Program-made: the position numbers and the translations under genes | Shown here: one piece after another, positions 12,330-39,327 of the stretch | Numbering within the stretch: the first letter of the stretch is position 1 | Layout of the letters: each line of letters opens with the position of its first letter | NCBI GenBank assembly: GCA_033696785.1 | Contig: GCA_033696785.1_4550.1 | From: a phage | Length of the DNA stretch: 39,327 nucleotides | Strand: one strand, 5' to 3' | The notes under the pieces: generated by a model | Seen by the model: the letters and a program-made list of their open reading frames with translations, nothing else | Told to the model about the DNA's origin: nothing | The model's database searches: none

Positions 12330-12778
12330 TTGTAAACAACGAGTTCTACGACCACTAGATTCAGGTGCTGGGTGAAGCGTTGTGCGTCCGTGGTGTGCAT
12401 CTGGAGGCGCTTATGGTTGAAGACGTGTGAGTTGCTGATCTTCACGTAAACTTCTTCAGGCTTTCCGTGGACGATGAACGTCTGGCCTACACCAATCTTG
12501 TCGATGGTCAGGACTTCACGCTTCACGGTCACAGGCGGTACGCTCGAAGCTGGTAGGACTTGAGGCTGGTCAACAACTTCTACACTGTATGTCTCGTGGC
12601 CATTCCAGCCGAAAGTCTCACCGATGTAATCCTCAGGATGCCACCCCTTCTCCACAATTACGCTATGGTCTTCTCGCTTTTCGAAAACAGCATCAGTGAA
12701 TCTGGGGTTATTCAGCAGGGTGTTCTTTGAGAATCTGTAACGTGTTCCAACTTCAAGGTCTTTACAGGTAGTCATCAC
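12320..12778 (-). CDS. Hypothetical protein, 152 aa, no T7 counterpart at this position
   Basis: Sits between the endonuclease I and lysozyme genes, which are adjacent in T7. No motif recognised. Confidence 0.7.
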   Translation of the reverse strand: MMTTCKDLEVGTRYRFSKNTLLNNPRFTDAVFEKREDHSVIVEKGWHPEDYIGETFGWNGHETYSVEVVDQPQVLPASSVPPVTVKREVLTIDKIGVGQTFIVHGKPEEVYVKISNSHVFNHKRLQMHTTDAQRFTQHLNLVVVELVVYNGK

Positions 12779-13224
12779 TTAACTCCTTTCTTCTTTGGGA
12801 TGAGTATACCTGAAGGCAGACGTACAGTCGCCTCTCGAAGCCACTCAACCGGGATAAACTTATCGGCATACTTATAGCCGTTCTTTTCGCACCATGCGCC
12901 ATACGTGGTCGGAGACCCTTTGTATAGCTTGGAGCGGGAACTTGAGAACACGAACCGTATGTCTAACTCTGGGTGCTGTTCTCGTACCAGAAGGTGCTTC
13001 TTACGGTCATCACTATCGAAGATACCTTTGGTCTCAACGATGATACCGTTAGGAAGGATAAAGTCGGGCGTGTAAAAATGATCGCTAGCAGGTACTACAT
13101 ACATAATTTTATATGCCTCATACTCAGCCCGTACCCCGTTCTTCTCCAGCCACTCTTGGTTCTTTGCTTCAAGCCCAGAGCGATACGCTCCCACTTTATG
13201 TCCTCGACTAATTGTTCTTGTCAC
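12775..13224 (-). CDS. Endonuclease I, Holliday-junction resolvase (T7 gp3 homolog)
   Basis: 149 aa with YTPDFILPNGIIVETKG and DRKKHLLVREQHPELDIRFVFSS. Confidence 0.95.
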   Translation of the reverse strand: MTRTISRGHKVGAYRSGLEAKNQEWLEKNGVRAEYEAYKIMYVVPASDHFYTPDFILPNGIIVETKGIFDSDDRKKHLLVREQHPELDIRFVFSSSRSKLYKGSPTTYGAWCEKNGYKYADKFIPVEWLREATVRLPSGILIPKKKGVK

Positions 13225-13657
13225 GCTTACGCCTCCAGTTAATAGCCTGTGGAGTAACTCCGAACATCTTAGCTAGCTCACTATTGGGCCGCGAGGACTT
13301 CAGGATGAACTCTACGTCTTCCTCGGTCAGCTTAGTCTTATTGTTAGCTTCTCCTATGAACACTGGAGGTTTCGACTTTCGCCCCCTCTCCATGCAGTCC
13401 CTCATGTTGTCCTTCTGCGTACCTAGTTCAAGGTGCTCAGGGTTACAGCAGCAGGGGTTGTCGCATTTATGTCTAACCAACATTCCATCAGGAATAGGAC
13501 CTATGAACTCCATGTATGACACACGATGTGCATAGTCCTGTTTCTGTCTTCCTATTGATATTCGACCGTATCCAGTAGGGAACCGGGAGCGTTGCCACTC
13601 CCAGCACCCGGAGGGAGAAACCTCAGAGTAATCCTCCAGTTTCTCTTTTAGATTCAT
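13208..13657 (-). CDS. HNH homing endonuclease (paralog 2)
   Basis: 149 aa with GCWEW..GYG and LVRHKCDNPCCCNPEHLELGT, plus C-terminal KLTEEDV helix. Confidence 0.88.
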   Translation of the reverse strand: MNLKEKLEDYSEVSPSGCWEWQRSRFPTGYGRISIGRQKQDYAHRVSYMEFIGPIPDGMLVRHKCDNPCCCNPEHLELGTQKDNMRDCMERGRKSKPPVFIGEANNKTKLTEEDVEFILKSSRPNSELAKMFGVTPQAINWRRKRDKNN

Positions 13658-14355
13658 TAGAAGTCGTAATCGCCACCAGAGTTGGAGTCGTCACCACCTT
13701 CGGAACCATCGTCACCAAAGTCATCAGACCCGAAGTCACCATCGGTTGACGCTTTGTAGCCGGTACCGAGGTCTTCATCATCGCCCCAGCCACCATCTCC
13801 ACCAGCACCATCACCTTTCCACTCCTTCAGTTCTACCAGAAGGCAGGACTCAAGCTGGAGCTTAACGCTTGCACCAGTCGCAGCGTTCCACTTGAACGGC
13901 AGGACTTTAAACTTGACCTTCAGCTTTGAGCCAGCGCCAATATTCGGGACGTCACGGATTAACTTAGCATCGGTGTCGTAGAACCGTAATACGATAGGCT
14001 CTGACTTACCATCCTTCAGGTAAGACGCGAAGCATTTAAACTTCAGGGTAACAGTACCGTCACCATTCTCAATCCAAGGCATGTCGCCTTCTCGTGGTTC
14101 AATAGGCTTCTTGCCACGCTGAACCTGAGGTGGGTTCTTCTCGTGGTCTGCGAGTGCTTTCGCATACGCATCGTCGTGAATCTTCTGTAAGACATCAATC
14201 ATCTTACGGACCTTCGGGTTGCTCAGGTCGAATGTCAGGTTAACCTTATGCTCACCACGCTCGTTAAACTTGGTGTCTGCTTTGTTCAGCCATGCGTAAG
14301 GCTCAACGATGCCAGCTACCGGAGTGGTGAAAGTCTTCAGTTGCTCTTTAGCCAT
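13657..14355 (-). CDS. Single-stranded DNA-binding protein (T7 gp2.5 homolog)
   Basis: 232 aa with GASVKLQLESCLLVEL and an acidic C-terminal tail ending DYDF (T7 ends DGDF). Confidence 0.95.
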   Translation of the reverse strand: MAKEQLKTFTTPVAGIVEPYAWLNKADTKFNERGEHKVNLTFDLSNPKVRKMIDVLQKIHDDAYAKALADHEKNPPQVQRGKKPIEPREGDMPWIENGDGTVTLKFKCFASYLKDGKSEPIVLRFYDTDAKLIRDVPNIGAGSKLKVKFKVLPFKWNAATGASVKLQLESCLLVELKEWKGDGAGGDGGWGDDEDLGTGYKASTDGDFGSDDFGDDGSEGGDDSNSGGDYDF

Positions 14356-36150: not shown

Positions 36151-38517
36151 TTAAACGGAACGAGCTTTCTTAGCTTTCTTAGCGTATGATGCCTCCCAGC
36201 CACACCCAACGATTGACACTGGGGTAGGATAGTTGGACTCTAAGGTTAGACTTGTGGTTAATGCGTTACCATTCATAGCGAAGCGATACTGCCCGTCACC
36301 AATGTTAGTAGTCCCTATAGTGTTCTGACCAAGGGTGTACCCGTTAAAGGTGTTCACGAACTCCCGCTCACCGTTTCTGACAATTAGCCTCAGAGCGCCA
36401 GTGTCTTTGTAGTTTACCCAAGCCCGACGAAGCTGTAGACGACCAGTGTCTTCAGACTGAGTACCACTACCGTCTTCAATCTTAATCAGGAACCGTGAGA
36501 ACTTGTAGGACATCAGATAAGCCCTTCCGATGAACACTGTGCGTCCTGACCAATCGCCGTTGAGGATAACCACAGTAGATATACTGGTTAATTCCCCGAG
36601 GTCCAAATAAGCACCCTGACTGTCAATCAGATAGTACCGACCGGGAGACGGAGCGTTACCGTCATAAGCAGTACCGATGTCAACCGTAGTCTTATTGGTG
36701 TCAGCATTAAACGAGCCAATTGGAATGACCATAGAAACCTTGGAGTCAACGTGCAGTCTATATGGCTCTGACGGTAAGTCAGTTGCCTCCTTGATGAACT
36801 TAAGGTGCTCAATGTCTACCCCTCCTTGGTGCTGACGAACTATGAACATGGTGGAGCCAATAGAAGCAGACGCCAGAATCCTATCATCTTTAGGGAACTC
36901 CCAGTGTGACCAAGAGGCTTGAAGCTGTACTCCGTCCTTAAACAAGAACTTGTAGATGTAGATTCGGTTGTATGCACCTGTAGAGTTAACGCAGATGTAG
37001 TTCTCAGTACCTGTACCTTGAATATCAAACACCCCGTTAGGGATGTAGGACAGTACGTGACCAGTTGTATCATCAGCATCCTTCACATCAGACACATCAT
37101 CTACAGCGAAGTATCGCTTAATGCTGGTGAATGACCCACGAGGGGCTGAGAAGAAGACTGAGCGTCCTACAGCGAACGGTCTGGCATTATCACCTAAGGC
37201 AAACTCTGAGCCTACATCAAGCTGGATAGACTTCGAGGTAAGGACTCCAGAGCTTGTCATCACGAACTGAACCTCATCCGACCAAAGTAGTAGCTGCTCG
37301 CTAAACGGAACGGCATACTTAAGGATTGAGATTCGAGGGTGACTTACAGCTACATCAATAGGGTCATCATCACTCAGTGTCGCCACACTCTTAGGGAAGA
37401 ACGCAAAGTAGCTGGCTGAACGGCTCATGATTACGTTCTCACCCGACAAGAACCCAAGTCTGTTCCTGTAGAAGAACACATCATTAATCGCAGCATCCAC
37501 GAAGCTAGGCATAGGGTTTGTGTCATCGTTGCCAGCACCACGCTTGGACCAATCCAGAGTCTTGAACTCAAAGGAGCCATCAGACTGTCTGACCAGAGCA
37601 TGTGGCATTGTGGTGACATCGAACCCAGTGACAACTCCCGGCTCCACTGTCTCCTTCCACGTCTTAGTGTTGGAGTCATACATCACGTAGTATTCATCGG
37701 CGCTACTGTTTGTCTCACCTTGAATCTTAATGATATACCCATTAGGAGCTGCAAGAGGTAGTTTAGAGATTGTCTGCACAGTGTCTAGGACTGGGCTTAT
37801 TAGCTGGTTAGCGTAGCCATCCTCAGTCTCCACTGAGTTAATGTCGGTCCCTGAAGGAGCTGTGATTAGCAGGAAGCCAGACCCAAGGTCAAACGTGAAG
37901 GTAGGATAGGCAGCAACAAGAAGGTCTCTCAGAGCTGCACCAATGGCTTGAGCGTCTACCTTAGGTGGGTCATTCTCGGCATCATTACCTGCTGGTAGCT
38001 TATGCGAGACCTTAACTCCACCGTTGATTCCCACCTTAAGGGTTCGACCATACTGTCCACCACGCAGGTTAATTAAAGCTCGTGCTTTGCGGTTATAACC
38101 AGAGTGTGACTTCTCGCTTCCACCTTTGACGACAACCTTACGGTTAACGACGAACGTATAGTCTGCCACGGTAACGACACGGATGTCATCTCGTGGGTTG
38201 GAGGACTTAACGTAATCTACCACACCGGAAACTGAGTATTGATTACCACTCAAGTCAACTACCTGAATGTTGGACCCGTTGAACACGATGTAATACTGCT
38301 CCTGCTCATCACGGTTAATCAGGTGGAACTTAGGGTTGCTCCCAACGTCTATGTTAAGACGTCGCTTGAAGACTGTAGGTGGACGCTTCTGGAGGCCATC
38401 ACTCTCTGATGACCAGCAGTTAACCTGTGCCTCGCCTTGGTCTGAGAACCTCAGTATATCAGGCTGTTGGCTAATGCCACCCTTAAGATTTTTTATGCTT
38501 TGCGTGATAAGCGGCAT
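36151..38517 (-). CDS. Tail tubular protein B (T7 gp12 homolog)
   Basis: 788 aa beginning MPLITQSIKNLKGGISQQPDILR, colinear with T7 gp12. Confidence 0.95.
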   Translation of the reverse strand: MPLITQSIKNLKGGISQQPDILRFSDQGEAQVNCWSSESDGLQKRPPTVFKRRLNIDVGSNPKFHLINRDEQEQYYIVFNGSNIQVVDLSGNQYSVSGVVDYVKSSNPRDDIRVVTVADYTFVVNRKVVVKGGSEKSHSGYNRKARALINLRGGQYGRTLKVGINGGVKVSHKLPAGNDAENDPPKVDAQAIGAALRDLLVAAYPTFTFDLGSGFLLITAPSGTDINSVETEDGYANQLISPVLDTVQTISKLPLAAPNGYIIKIQGETNSSADEYYVMYDSNTKTWKETVEPGVVTGFDVTTMPHALVRQSDGSFEFKTLDWSKRGAGNDDTNPMPSFVDAAINDVFFYRNRLGFLSGENVIMSRSASYFAFFPKSVATLSDDDPIDVAVSHPRISILKYAVPFSEQLLLWSDEVQFVMTSSGVLTSKSIQLDVGSEFALGDNARPFAVGRSVFFSAPRGSFTSIKRYFAVDDVSDVKDADDTTGHVLSYIPNGVFDIQGTGTENYICVNSTGAYNRIYIYKFLFKDGVQLQASWSHWEFPKDDRILASASIGSTMFIVRQHQGGVDIEHLKFIKEATDLPSEPYRLHVDSKVSMVIPIGSFNADTNKTTVDIGTAYDGNAPSPGRYYLIDSQGAYLDLGELTSISTVVILNGDWSGRTVFIGRAYLMSYKFSRFLIKIEDGSGTQSEDTGRLQLRRAWVNYKDTGALRLIVRNGEREFVNTFNGYTLGQNTIGTTNIGDGQYRFAMNGNALTTSLTLESNYPTPVSIVGCGWEASYAKKAKKARSV

Positions 38518-38645
38518 GTGCCCTCCAGATACTTAGCAGCGTTTAGTAGAATCTCACGGGAGTCCTTGAAGCCTCCTAGAGACTTATTGCAGTGCCTGCA
38601 GAGAAGACCTCTAACCTCGCCAGTTGCGTGGTTGTGACTAGCCAT
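38493..38645 (-). CDS. Endonuclease VII-like (HNH superfamily) mini-ORF
   Basis: About 50 aa hand-translated: MASHNHATGEVRGLLCRHCNKSLGGFKDSREILLNAAKYLEGTCRLSRKA. The H.H.TG.VRGLLC..CN..LG block is the Endonuclease_7 signature as I recall it. Not in the ORF track. Confidence 0.45.
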   Translation of the reverse strand: MASHNHATGEVRGLLCRHCNKSLGGFKDSREILLNAAKYLEGTCRLSRKA

Positions 38646-39211
38646 TAGTCCCTCCCGATGTCAGACATCATGTTGTAGCGACCAGTGTCCATCTCATACT
38701 CCATAACCTGCTGATAGAGTTCTGCTTCCTGCTCACGAAGGTATAGCTCTGACTCTGGGCTACCGAAGAACTTAGCGTTGAACTCACGGCTGGCTTTAGT
38801 GACGATGTAGTCCCTGAAGACCACAGGCATCTCAGAGAATGGTTTCATCTCCACAAGCTCTACCGTGATCGGGTCGGTGAAAGTGGTTGACTGAGTGGAT
38901 AGGTCGTACAGGTATCCACCCATGTTGCTGTAGTAGCTGGTGGCCCCAGCGGTCATTACACGGAGGTATGACGGCAGGAATCGAATCCTATTGTCTTGGA
39001 CATCAGGTGTCAGGACAGCAGCTTCGTTAATGTTAAAGTTCCATCCTTTAGCTTGGACCTGACGATTGACACGATGCAGGATACGTTGAGCATTCGAGAC
39101 GTCAGCGTTACCTTCGTCAAGCTGTAGTACTGCTGGTTCACCGATAGCAGCTAACATATCGTTGATGGCATCTAAGTCATCGTTAGCATTCAGTGGAATG
39201 TATTGAGACAT
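38645..39211 (-). CDS. Tail tubular protein A (T7 gp11 homolog)
   Basis: 188 aa with LAAIGEP, ANA.RIL, GYLYDL.TQST and FRDYIVTKASREFN matching T7 gp11. Confidence 0.95.
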   Translation of the reverse strand: MSQYIPLNANDDLDAINDMLAAIGEPAVLQLDEGNADVSNAQRILHRVNRQVQAKGWNFNINEAAVLTPDVQDNRIRFLPSYLRVMTAGATSYYSNMGGYLYDLSTQSTTFTDPITVELVEMKPFSEMPVVFRDYIVTKASREFNAKFFGSPESELYLREQEAELYQQVMEYEMDTGRYNMMSDIGRD

Positions 39212-39222
39212 AGGTTTACTCC

Positions 39223-39312
39223 TTAACGGTCATATGGGCTAGACGGTGAGCTGGGCAGCAGGTACGCCCAGAATAAGACGAATAGTGCTAACCCTGTGTA
39301 AATAAGGACCAT
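39223..39312 (-). CDS. Small hydrophobic peptide between T-phi and gene 11
   Basis: About 29 aa hand-translated (MVLIYTGLALFVLFWAYLLPSSPSSPYDR) behind a strong RBS (AAGGAGGGACT); its stop sits in the gene 11 RBS. Not in the ORF track. Confidence 0.35.
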   Translation of the reverse strand: MVLIYTGLALFVLFWAYLLPSSPSSPYDR

Positions 39313-39327
39313 AGTCCCTCCTTAAGC

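What the first reader, a model, noticed from the sequence alone, without database searches (positions are those of the whole stretch)
38493..38645. Endonuclease-VII-like mini-ORF wedged between the tail tube genes
A 50-codon ORF starting at the gp11 stop (TAATG overlap) and running 25 nt into gp12 encodes the signature H-N-H.TGEVRGLLC.HCN..LG. It is too short for a full enzyme and may be a remnant or a minimal nicking module. It is below the 60-aa ORF-track cutoff, so it is easy to miss.
Basis: partly seen in the sequence, partly recalled or inferred. Interest (0 to 1): 0.5.

Follow-up and report, generated by a model that had tools for sequence, protein, structure and literature searches.

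The report
Deletion scar of a phage homing endonuclease
The 50-codon ORF is real and truly Endonuclease-VII-like, but it is the leftover of a 527-bp deletion that fused the start of a neighbouring gene to the tail end of a selfish homing-endonuclease gene, so it is an ordinary dead remnant and not a minimal enzyme.

Summary
A 50-codon ORF lies on the minus strand at 38493-38645, shares TAATG with the gp11 stop, runs 25 nt into gp12, and matches Pfam Endonuclease_7 at E=7.9e-14, but only profile positions 43-81 of 82.

The window is a Kayfunavirus (T7-like). Most relatives carry gp11, a 75-aa ASCH/DUF3850 gene, then gp12. A few (Hafnia phage yong1/Ca, Escherichia phage KM02, two metagenome contigs) also carry a 146-aa Endo VII-motif endonuclease on a clean 418-nt cassette.

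The window ORF is ASCH codons 1-5 fused in frame to endonuclease codons 102-146. The join is a 7-nt direct repeat (CACAACC) present in both parent genes. Simulating that 527-bp deletion in KM02 reproduces the ORF of Kayfunavirus LI10P1 exactly (0/153 differences).

The deletion removed both N-terminal zinc cysteines, the metal-binding Asp and the whole N-terminal region. Mutating these residues kills T4 Endo VII and F-CphI.

The same gene was gutted in other ways elsewhere: a 273-bp internal deletion and replacements by foreign DNA.

Verdict: a degenerate free-standing homing-endonuclease gene, probably still translated but catalytically dead. Interest is low.

The parts
38493..38645 (-). 50-codon fusion ORF, the remnant (MASHNHATGEVRGLLCRHCNKSLGGFKDSREILLNAAKYLEGTCRLSRKA)
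38650..38656 (-). Shine-Dalgarno GGGAGGG inside the 3' end of gp11, 5 nt before the ORF's ATG. The same signal serves the ASCH gene in relatives, and gp12 itself in phages with an empty junction.
   Evidence: sequence; alignment A1 columns 1-91 invariant; YZ1 junction
38637..38645 (-). ATGGCTAGT: the first three codons, derived only from the ASCH/DUF3850 gene (start overlaps the gp11 stop)
38630..38636 (-). CACAACC: deletion junction, a 7-nt microhomology present once in the ASCH gene (codons 4-5, His-Asn) and once in the endonuclease gene (codons 100-101 of D-H-N-H)
   Evidence: copies 527 nt apart in yong1 and KM02; only 0.039% of random endpoint pairs share >=7 nt
38527..38629 (-). Surviving 3' part of the 418-nt endonuclease cassette (with the repeat, 110 of 418 nt). 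It encodes the second His, Arg, CX2C-Asn and the C-terminal helix.
38493..38526 (-). Backbone sequence that is not part of the cassette: gp12 Shine-Dalgarno GGAGG (38522-38526), gp12 ATG (38515-38517), and the borrowed stop TAA (38493-38495). It supplies the ORF's last 10 codons and the stop.
   Evidence: the same 34 nt are present in cassette-free ST31
38645..39211 (-). gp11, tail tubular protein A (upstream neighbour)
   Evidence: PF17212 Tube, E=3.6e-46
36151..38517 (-). gp12, tail tubular protein B / nozzle (downstream neighbour)
   Evidence: PF25675 Phage_nozzle, E=0

Best explanation
The ORF is a deletion scar, a dead remnant of a free-standing Endo VII-motif homing endonuclease gene. 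In the ancestral arrangement, still seen in Hafnia phage yong1/Ca, Escherichia phage KM02 and two metagenome contigs, the order is gp11, a 75-aa ASCH/DUF3850 gene, a 146-aa endonuclease on a 418-nt cassette, then gp12. A 527-bp deletion between two copies of CACAACC removed ASCH codons 6-75 and endonuclease codons 1-99 (shown). One copy lies at ASCH codons 4-5 and the other at endonuclease codons 100-101. Both copies are read as His-Asn in their own genes, so the join is in frame. The fusion therefore keeps the ASCH ribosome-binding site and start codon and the endonuclease's borrowed stop 25 nt inside gp12 (shown). The product keeps H, H, R, CX2C and N of the motif. It lacks the N-terminal CX2C zinc ligands, the metal-binding Asp (now Ser3) and the whole N-terminal region, so it should neither fold around zinc nor cleave DNA (inferred from mutagenesis of homologs). 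It is probably still translated as a by-product of inherited signals (inferred). The only working content of the stretch is gp12's ribosome-binding site and start. The deletion most likely arose by slipped mispairing or microhomology-mediated joining during replication or recombination (inferred from the junction). This is the degeneration stage of the usual homing-endonuclease life cycle.
For: 1) Alignment A1 and translations: the ORF's first 16 nt are identical to the ASCH gene start, and the rest matches the endonuclease 3' end. 2): CACAACC copies lie 527 nt apart in yong1 and KM02. The simulated deletion in KM02 gives LI10P1's ORF with 0/153 differences and the window's ORF with 6/153. 3): microhomology of 7 nt or more is expected at 0.039% of random endpoint pairs. 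4): only profile positions 43-81/82 match; full-length P0007 matches positions 3-81 at residues 58-137. 5): alignment to T4 Endo VII places C81/C84 at C23/C26, D99 at D40, H100 at H41, H102 at H43, C112/C115 at C58/C61 and N116 at N62. 6): C81, D99, H100, H102, R108, C112, C115 and N116 are invariant, and C84 is >=90% conserved, in 46 homologs. 7) PMC6083498: T4 C23S and D40N/A, and F-CphI C84S and D101N, are inactive. 8): the full-length model (pLDDT 90.1) has the Hpy99I / T4 Endo VII beta-beta-alpha-Me fold. The ORF starts at the last residue of the first strand. Alone it models poorly (pLDDT 60.9) and not as beta-beta-alpha. 9) The same gene was independently destroyed elsewhere: a 273-bp internal deletion (P0002; L009/L010) and core replacement by foreign DNA (L011, L012). 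10) The parent behaves as a mobile cassette. It is a clean 418-nt insert relative to ST31. It occurs in only 2 of 50,697 phage records. It sits at the same site in a 76%-identical homolog on a more diverged backbone. Its divergence is 1.4-2.2% against up to 12.3% in the flanks. 11) The window encodes T7-type endonuclease I, so it does not need an Endo VII resolvase. 12) Precedents: T4 I-TevIII is 'inactive on account of a large deletion' (PMC2988022), and a spontaneous 397-bp deletion of another homing endonuclease gene arose in Hafnia phage Ca cultures (PMC8861465).
Against: No experiment shows that the peptide is inactive or unexpressed. All five known sequence variants of the remnant keep an open 50-codon frame, although they were found by protein search, which cannot see broken frames. 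The substitution counts do not show relaxed constraint. Window vs LI10P1, in the 36 codons that do not overlap gp12, gives 3 synonymous and 1 non-synonymous change, too few to decide either way. The remnant occurs on two backbones that differ at about 36% of gp11 synonymous sites. This requires either recombinational spread of the deleted allele or two identical deletions.
Confidence: 0.88

Rival explanations
1. Minimal functional nuclease or nickase: the 50-aa peptide retains enough of the beta-beta-alpha-Me motif (H, H, R, CX2C, N) to cut DNA, perhaps as a dimer that pools cysteines to bind zinc.
For: H4, H6, R12, C16, C19 and N20 correspond to T4 H41, H43, R54, C58, C61 and N62. The ORF has a good ribosome-binding site and start. 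The frame is open in all five variants.
Against: It lacks C81/C84 and D99, which are invariant or nearly so in 46 homologs. Single substitutions at the equivalent residues inactivate T4 Endo VII and F-CphI, and the first-cysteine mutants (T4 C23S, F-CphI C84S) also lose DNA binding (PMC6083498). It lacks the first beta strand and all 98 upstream residues, which include the presumed DNA-recognition region. The peptide alone models at pLDDT 60.9 as a helical hairpin. None of the best 150 relatives among 1.84 billion representatives is shorter than 146 aa. Variants carry N5S and I32N.
Confidence: 0.02
2. Non-catalytic retained function. Either the translated ORF is kept because ribosomes reading through it support gp12 initiation (translational coupling), or the peptide interferes with the intact endonuclease of co-infecting relatives (anti-homing protection).
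For: Three independent rearrangements (window type, P0002, P0020) keep a start codon and read in frame to the same stop inside gp12. A free-standing endonuclease gene that carries expression signals for an essential downstream gene is harder to delete (argued for embedded promoters in T4, PMC2988022).
Against: The in-frame cases were found by protein similarity, which cannot detect out-of-frame remnants. L011, a 40.3-kb contig, reads the endonuclease 3' remnant out of frame and stops 15 nt before gp12's ATG, so read-through is not required. gp12 has its own strong GGAGG 4 nt upstream of its ATG, as in cassette-free ST31. Phages such as YZ1 have nothing between gp11 and gp12. In the overlap, the observed changes (H48R, R45H) are synonymous for gp12 and non-synonymous for the ORF.
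Confidence: 0.07
3. Artefact: a mis-assembly or sequencing deletion in this record, or a chance ORF with a spurious motif.
For: The ORF is short, and short ORFs are abundant (34 ORFs of >=20 aa in 2.8 kb).
Against: Pfam E=7.9e-14. The identical ORF occurs on at least 10 contigs from NCBI assemblies and Logan runs. The same junction is present in LI10P1 on a diverged backbone.
Confidence: 0.01

Closest known systems
F-CphI / 'DHHRN' Endo VII-motif homing endonucleases, and the related restriction enzyme Hpy99I (PMC6083498; PDB 3fc3)
   Same: The parent 146-aa protein has the Endo VII motif at its C-terminus (residues 58-137) with all the defining residues: CX2C, DHxH, R, CX2C-N. Its best sequence and fold matches are Hpy99I, then T4 Endo VII. 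It sits in a podovirus that has its own T7 endonuclease I, which is the situation that paper uses to call such proteins homing enzymes.
   Different: The window ORF is only the last third of such a protein. It has no N-terminal CX2C, no Asp and no upstream domain. No activity or target site has been shown, even for the 146-aa parent.
T4 I-TevIII, an HNH homing endonuclease gene inactivated by a large deletion, with an intact ortholog in phage RB3 (PMC2988022)
   Same: A phage HNH-superfamily homing endonuclease gene reduced to a defunct ORF by a deletion, while relatives keep the intact gene at the same site.
   Different: I-TevIII is intron-encoded. This one is free-standing in an intergenic slot, and its deletion also removed a neighbouring gene and produced an in-frame gene fusion.
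T4 endonuclease VII (gp49), Holliday-junction resolvase (PDB 1en7, 2qnc)
   Same: It shares the beta-beta-alpha-Me zinc-stabilised catalytic motif. The Pfam family is named after it.
   Different: In T4 the motif is N-terminal and is followed by dimerisation helices. Here the motif is C-terminal in the parent. The phage already has T7 endonuclease I, and the gene is dispensable and patchy. It is neither a resolvase nor a member of the resolvase clade.
Free-standing seg/mob homing endonuclease genes of T-even phages (PMC2988022)
   Same: A promoter-less cassette in an intergenic slot between conserved genes, in the same orientation as its neighbours, present or absent among close relatives, and entangled with the expression signals of the downstream essential gene.
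   Different: It belongs to a different nuclease family (Endo VII motif rather than GIY-YIG or classical HNH with a C-terminal DNA-binding domain). Homing has not been shown experimentally.

Membership tests
Pfam Endonuclease_7 / Endo VII-motif (DHHRN) nucleases | Significant match to the family profile | tested here: met
   51.8 bits vs cut-off 23.6, E=7.9e-14, but only profile positions 43-81 of 82. Homology is certain; the domain is incomplete.
Pfam Endonuclease_7 / Endo VII-motif (DHHRN) nucleases | N-terminal CX2-4C pair of zinc ligands (T4 C23/C26) | tested here: not met
   Absent. The equivalents C81/C84 of the 146-aa parent lie in the deleted part. C81 is invariant and C84 >=90% conserved in 46 homologs.
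Pfam Endonuclease_7 / Endo VII-motif (DHHRN) nucleases | Metal-binding Asp of the DHxH cluster (T4 D40) | tested here: not met
   The position is Ser3, contributed by the ASCH gene. D99 is invariant in 46 homologs. T4 D40N/A and F-CphI D101N are inactive (PMC6083498).
Pfam Endonuclease_7 / Endo VII-motif (DHHRN) nucleases | Two His, conserved Arg, C-terminal CX2C and Asn (T4 H41, H43, R54, C58, C61, N62) | tested here: met
   H4, H6, R12, C16, C19, N20.
Pfam Endonuclease_7 / Endo VII-motif (DHHRN) nucleases | Endonuclease activity | not testable with these tools
   Needs purified protein. Predicted absent.
Free-standing homing endonuclease gene (applies to the 146-aa parent cassette) | Discrete insertion between conserved genes, present or absent among close relatives | tested here: met
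   Clean 418-nt insert between the ASCH stop and the gp12 ribosome-binding site, relative to ST31. At this junction in 2 of 50,697 phage records.
Free-standing homing endonuclease gene (applies to the 146-aa parent cassette) | Same insertion site on diverged backbones, and the cassette less diverged than its flanks | tested here: inconclusive
   Same site in five full-length carriers, including a 76%-identical homolog. Cassette 1.4-2.2% diverged vs flanks 1.8-12.3%, but some pairs have equally similar flanks.
Free-standing homing endonuclease gene (applies to the 146-aa parent cassette) | Site-specific cleavage of cassette-free genomes and super-Mendelian inheritance in mixed infection | not testable with these tools
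   Requires nuclease assays and phage crosses.
T4 Endo VII-type Holliday junction resolvase | Motif at the N-terminus with C-terminal dimerisation helices, serving as the phage's only resolvase | tested here: not met
   The motif is C-terminal in the parent. The window has T7 endonuclease I, PF05367 E=1.6e-75. The gene is absent from most relatives.
Deletion-inactivated homing endonuclease remnant (as T4 I-TevIII) | Intact ortholog at the same locus in relatives, and a deletion that removes essential residues | tested here: met

The most novel reading that the evidence does not exclude
The fusion peptide is made late in infection and is kept because it does something non-catalytic. One possibility is binding the intact endonuclease of co-infecting Kayfunaviruses, or its DNA site, and so protecting the genome from cleavage and gene conversion: an 'anti-homing' peptide born from the element's own corpse. 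Another is acting as a zinc-bridged dimeric mini-nickase.
Probability: 0.04. Interest if true: 0.6.

Novelty: new member of a known kind. Interest (0 to 1): 0.2.

Why it matters
On its own it matters little. It is one more decayed homing-endonuclease gene, and it should be annotated as a remnant or fusion ORF, not as an endonuclease. It has three modest uses. First, it is an unusually clean, base-exact example of how short-repeat deletion removes selfish genes from T7-like phages and can create an in-frame gene fusion. Second, it marks the gp11-gp12 junction of Kayfunavirus as a small hot spot with at least seven states: empty, ASCH only, ASCH plus endonuclease, two different deletion remnants, and two foreign-DNA chimeras. 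Third, it shows that both the ASCH/DUF3850 gene and the endonuclease are dispensable, and that this slot tolerates inserts, which is useful for phage engineering.

Tried and rejected
1) Selection test: Nei-Gojobori counts on the remnant vs gp11 and gp12 gave only 3 synonymous and 1 non-synonymous change, so the test is inconclusive.

2) Wider DNA sampling found little. Three IMG/VR scans and one GTDB-genome scan with junction-specific or shared patterns gave 0 hits. The single metagenome scan gave one full-length carrier.

3) I considered whether read-through into gp12 is required. This was rejected because L011 terminates out of frame before gp12 and YZ1 has no intervening ORF.

4) I considered whether in-frame recurrence proves selection. 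This was rejected as ascertainment bias of protein-based searching.

5) I considered a recognised class of stand-alone ~50-aa Endo VII halves, prompted by the 65-position PHROG 17507. None of the best 150 representatives is shorter than 146 aa. The members of that PHROG could not be inspected.

6) A single-sequence AlphaFold model of the peptide had low confidence and is not informative on its own.

7) The promoter and terminator scan of 38300-39327 found nothing above shuffled expectation.

8) I looked for another Endo VII-type gene in the window that the peptide might partner with. tblastn and a motif regex found none.

9) A literature search for the classical T7 direct-repeat deletion papers did not retrieve them. 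That T7 readily deletes between short direct repeats is stated from my own knowledge only.
Full report
OBSERVATION

The ORF exists as described, but on the minus strand: 38493..38645, 50 codons, MASHNHATGEVRGLLCRHCNKSLGGFKDSREILLNAAKYLEGTCRLSRKA. Its ATG shares an A with the TAA of gp11 (38645..39211 -, Pfam Tube E=3.6e-46). Its stop lies 25 nt inside gp12 (36151..38517 -, Pfam Phage_nozzle E=0).

Pfam Endonuclease_7 scores 51.8 bits against a cut-off of 23.6 (E=7.9e-14), and three PHROG 'endonuclease VII' families hit at E<=1e-13. The match covers only profile positions 43-81 of 82, so only the C-terminal half of the domain is there.

WHERE IT COMES FROM

The window is a Kayfunavirus (Autographiviridae, T7-like), with all its genes on the minus strand. 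The gp11-gp12 junction differs among relatives:

- Empty: gp11 TAATG gp12 directly, as in YZ1 and Pipis.
- ASCH only: gp11, a 75-aa DUF3850/ASCH gene, then gp12. This is the majority state, for example ST31.
- ASCH plus endonuclease: the same with a 146-aa endonuclease added. It is seen in Hafnia phage yong1 (= phage Ca, PMC8861465, where it is ORF 37), Escherichia phage KM02, and metagenome contigs L006 and L013.
- The window's arrangement: shared with Kayfunavirus LI10P1 and with contigs in E. coli and Salmonella assemblies and Logan runs.

The endonuclease arrives as a clean 418-nt insert between the ASCH stop and gp12's GGAGG. It has no stop codon of its own. Its last 11 codons and TAA are read from backbone sequence that is also present in cassette-free ST31.

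THE DELETION

Alignment A1 shows that the window ORF's first 16 nt (ATGGCTAGTCACAACC) are the start of the ASCH gene (MASHN...). The remainder is the 3' end of the endonuclease gene (...DHNHETGEVRG...).

The heptamer CACAACC occurs at ASCH codons 4-5 and again at endonuclease codons 100-101, 527 nt apart, in both yong1 and KM02. Removing the interval in silico from KM02 gives LI10P1's ORF with 0 differences in 153 nt, and the window's ORF with 6.

Only 0.039% of random endpoint pairs in the parental region share 7 nt or more of microhomology. The junction therefore points to slipped mispairing or microhomology-mediated joining. Both repeat copies are read as His-Asn, so the fusion is in frame. 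The a priori chance of that is about one in three.

WHAT WAS LOST

Sequence alignment to T4 Endo VII pairs parent residues with T4 residues as follows:

- C81/C84 with zinc ligands C23/C26
- D99 with D40
- H100 with H41
- H102 with H43
- C112/C115 with C58/C61
- N116 with N62

In 46 homologs, C81, D99, H100, H102, R108, C112, C115 and N116 are invariant, and C84 is at least 90% conserved. The window ORF keeps H, H, R, CX2C and N. It has Ser where the Asp should be, and it lacks both N-terminal cysteines and all 98 upstream residues.

Published mutagenesis shows that T4 C23S and D40N/A, and F-CphI C84S and D101N, are inactive, and that the first-cysteine mutants (T4 C23S, F-CphI C84S) also lose DNA binding (PMC6083498).

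An AlphaFold model of the full-length protein is confident (pLDDT 90.1) and matches Hpy99I and T4 Endo VII by Foldseek at probability 1.00. The remnant begins at the last residue of the first beta strand. Modelled alone, it scores pLDDT 60.9 and is not beta-beta-alpha. A minimal nicking module is therefore very unlikely.

WHAT THE PARENT GENE IS

The motif lies at the C-terminus of the 146-aa protein (residues 58-137), and the closest solved relative is the restriction enzyme Hpy99I. These are the traits of the 'endonuclease clade' of PMC6083498, as opposed to the resolvase clade.

The window encodes T7-type endonuclease I (12775..13224 -, E=1.6e-75), so it does not need an Endo VII resolvase. 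The gene is rare: it is at this junction in 2 of 50,697 phage records. It always sits at the same site, including a 76%-identical homolog on a more diverged backbone. It is uniformly 1.4-2.2% diverged among carriers whose flanks differ by up to 12.3%.

All of this fits a free-standing homing endonuclease gene. Cleavage and homing themselves were not, and cannot be, tested here.

INDEPENDENT DECAY OF THE SAME GENE

- Contigs L009 and L010 carry a 55-aa ORF (P0002) made by a different, 273-bp in-frame deletion. It lies between imperfect CTGTAGRC repeats and joins residues 1-21 to residues 113-146. These contigs have no ASCH gene.
- Contig L012 carries P0020: endonuclease residues 1-36, a foreign Phage_phiTE_015-type segment, then the last 14 residues.
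- Contig L011 carries a longer foreign insert that runs into the endonuclease 3' remnant out of frame and stops 15 nt before gp12's ATG.
- The foreign DNA is about 90% identical to 46-kb coliphages such as C1 and S192.

These cases fit the standard homing-endonuclease life cycle of invasion, inactivation and loss (abstract of PMC13619312). T4 I-TevIII, 'inactive on account of a large deletion', is a close precedent (PMC2988022). A spontaneous 397-bp deletion of another homing endonuclease gene arose in cultures of Hafnia phage Ca (PMC8861465).

IS THE REMNANT KEPT FOR A REASON?

The evidence here is weak in both directions.

Points that might suggest retention:
- It inherits a good ribosome-binding site (GGGAGGG, 5 nt before the ATG) and is probably translated (inference).
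- All five known protein variants keep the 50-codon frame. However, they were found by protein search, which cannot see broken frames.

Points against, or neutral:
- Substitutions are too few to test: 3 synonymous and 1 non-synonymous in 36 non-overlapping codons.
- In the gp12 overlap, the changes seen (H48R, R45H) are silent for gp12 and replacing for the ORF.
- Read-through into gp12 is not needed (L011, YZ1).
- gp12 has its own GGAGG.
- No relative among the best 150 of 38,316 hits in 1.84 billion representatives is shorter than 146 aa.

The simplest account is recency, plus the fact that the stretch's last 34 nt are gp12's own translation start region.

One open point remains. The same junction occurs on two backbones that differ at about 36% of gp11 synonymous sites. 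Either the deleted allele spread by recombination, or the same deletion happened twice.

VERDICT

The ORF is a chimeric deletion scar of a free-standing Endo VII-motif homing endonuclease gene and the neighbouring ASCH gene. Confidence is 0.88. Novelty: a new (defunct) member of a known kind. Interest is low (0.2). The value lies in the base-exact reconstruction and in flagging a small mosaic hot spot.

Noticed in passing
window 13208-13657 (-): An intact 149-aa ORF with a Pfam HNH_3 domain (E=1.1e-16) sits between the T7-type SSB gene (13657-14355 -) and endonuclease I (12775-13224 -). It is probably another free-standing homing endonuclease of a different family, and it is still whole in this genome.
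   Followed up: partly
L009 1696-1863 and L010 1656-1823 (ENA metagenome contigs): A second, independent remnant of the same endonuclease: the 55-aa P0002, made by a 273-bp in-frame deletion between imperfect CTGTAGRC repeats. It sits in a junction that has no ASCH gene, with gp11's stop 11 nt upstream.
   Followed up: yes
L012 2501-2845 and L011 2501-2908: The endonuclease's catalytic core is replaced by a Phage_phiTE_015-type segment that is about 90% identical at the DNA level to 46-kb coliphages (C1, S192, gmqsjt-1). The replacement is in frame in L012. In L011 it runs out of frame into the old 3' end. This is DNA exchange between unrelated phage groups inside a dying gene.
   Followed up: partly
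L001 1984-2435 (yong1); equivalent backbone in window 38493-38526: The 418-nt endonuclease cassette brings no stop codon. The intact gene's last 11 codons and its TAA are read from gp12's ribosome-binding site and first 25 nt, and that sequence is also present in cassette-free phages such as ST31.
   Followed up: yes
window 36166-36183 (-), 3' end of gp12: A 9-nt tandem duplication (GCTAAGAAA x2) makes gp12 end in ...AKKAKKARSV (788 aa). Several relatives have ...AKKARSV (785 aa).
   Followed up: no
window ends (1-175 and 39211-39327): The window is a reverse-complemented, circularly permuted whole genome. The major capsid gene ends at 175 (-) and gp11 starts at 39211 (-), and the two ends together rebuild the ~290-nt capsid-gp11 spacer seen in L007. 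gp11, the remnant ORF and the first ~1.5 kb of gp12 are identical on a 39,438-bp contig of an E. coli assembly (GCA_013181095.1). The phage was therefore sequenced as a passenger in bacterial isolates. The nearest phage in the INPHARED collection is only about 92-93% identical.
   Followed up: partly
PHROG 17507 and 11865: Two small PHROG 'endonuclease VII' families (profile lengths 65 and 95) align from their position 2-3 to residue 3 of the ORF. Similar N-terminally truncated Endo VII ORFs may therefore have been called in other phages. Their members could not be inspected here.
   Followed up: no
window, gp11-gp12 junction: This phage lacks the DUF3850/ASCH 'RNA-binding protein' gene that most of the ~200 related records carry at this junction, as do the empty-junction phages (YZ1, Pipis). 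The gene is therefore dispensable for these phages.
   Followed up: partly
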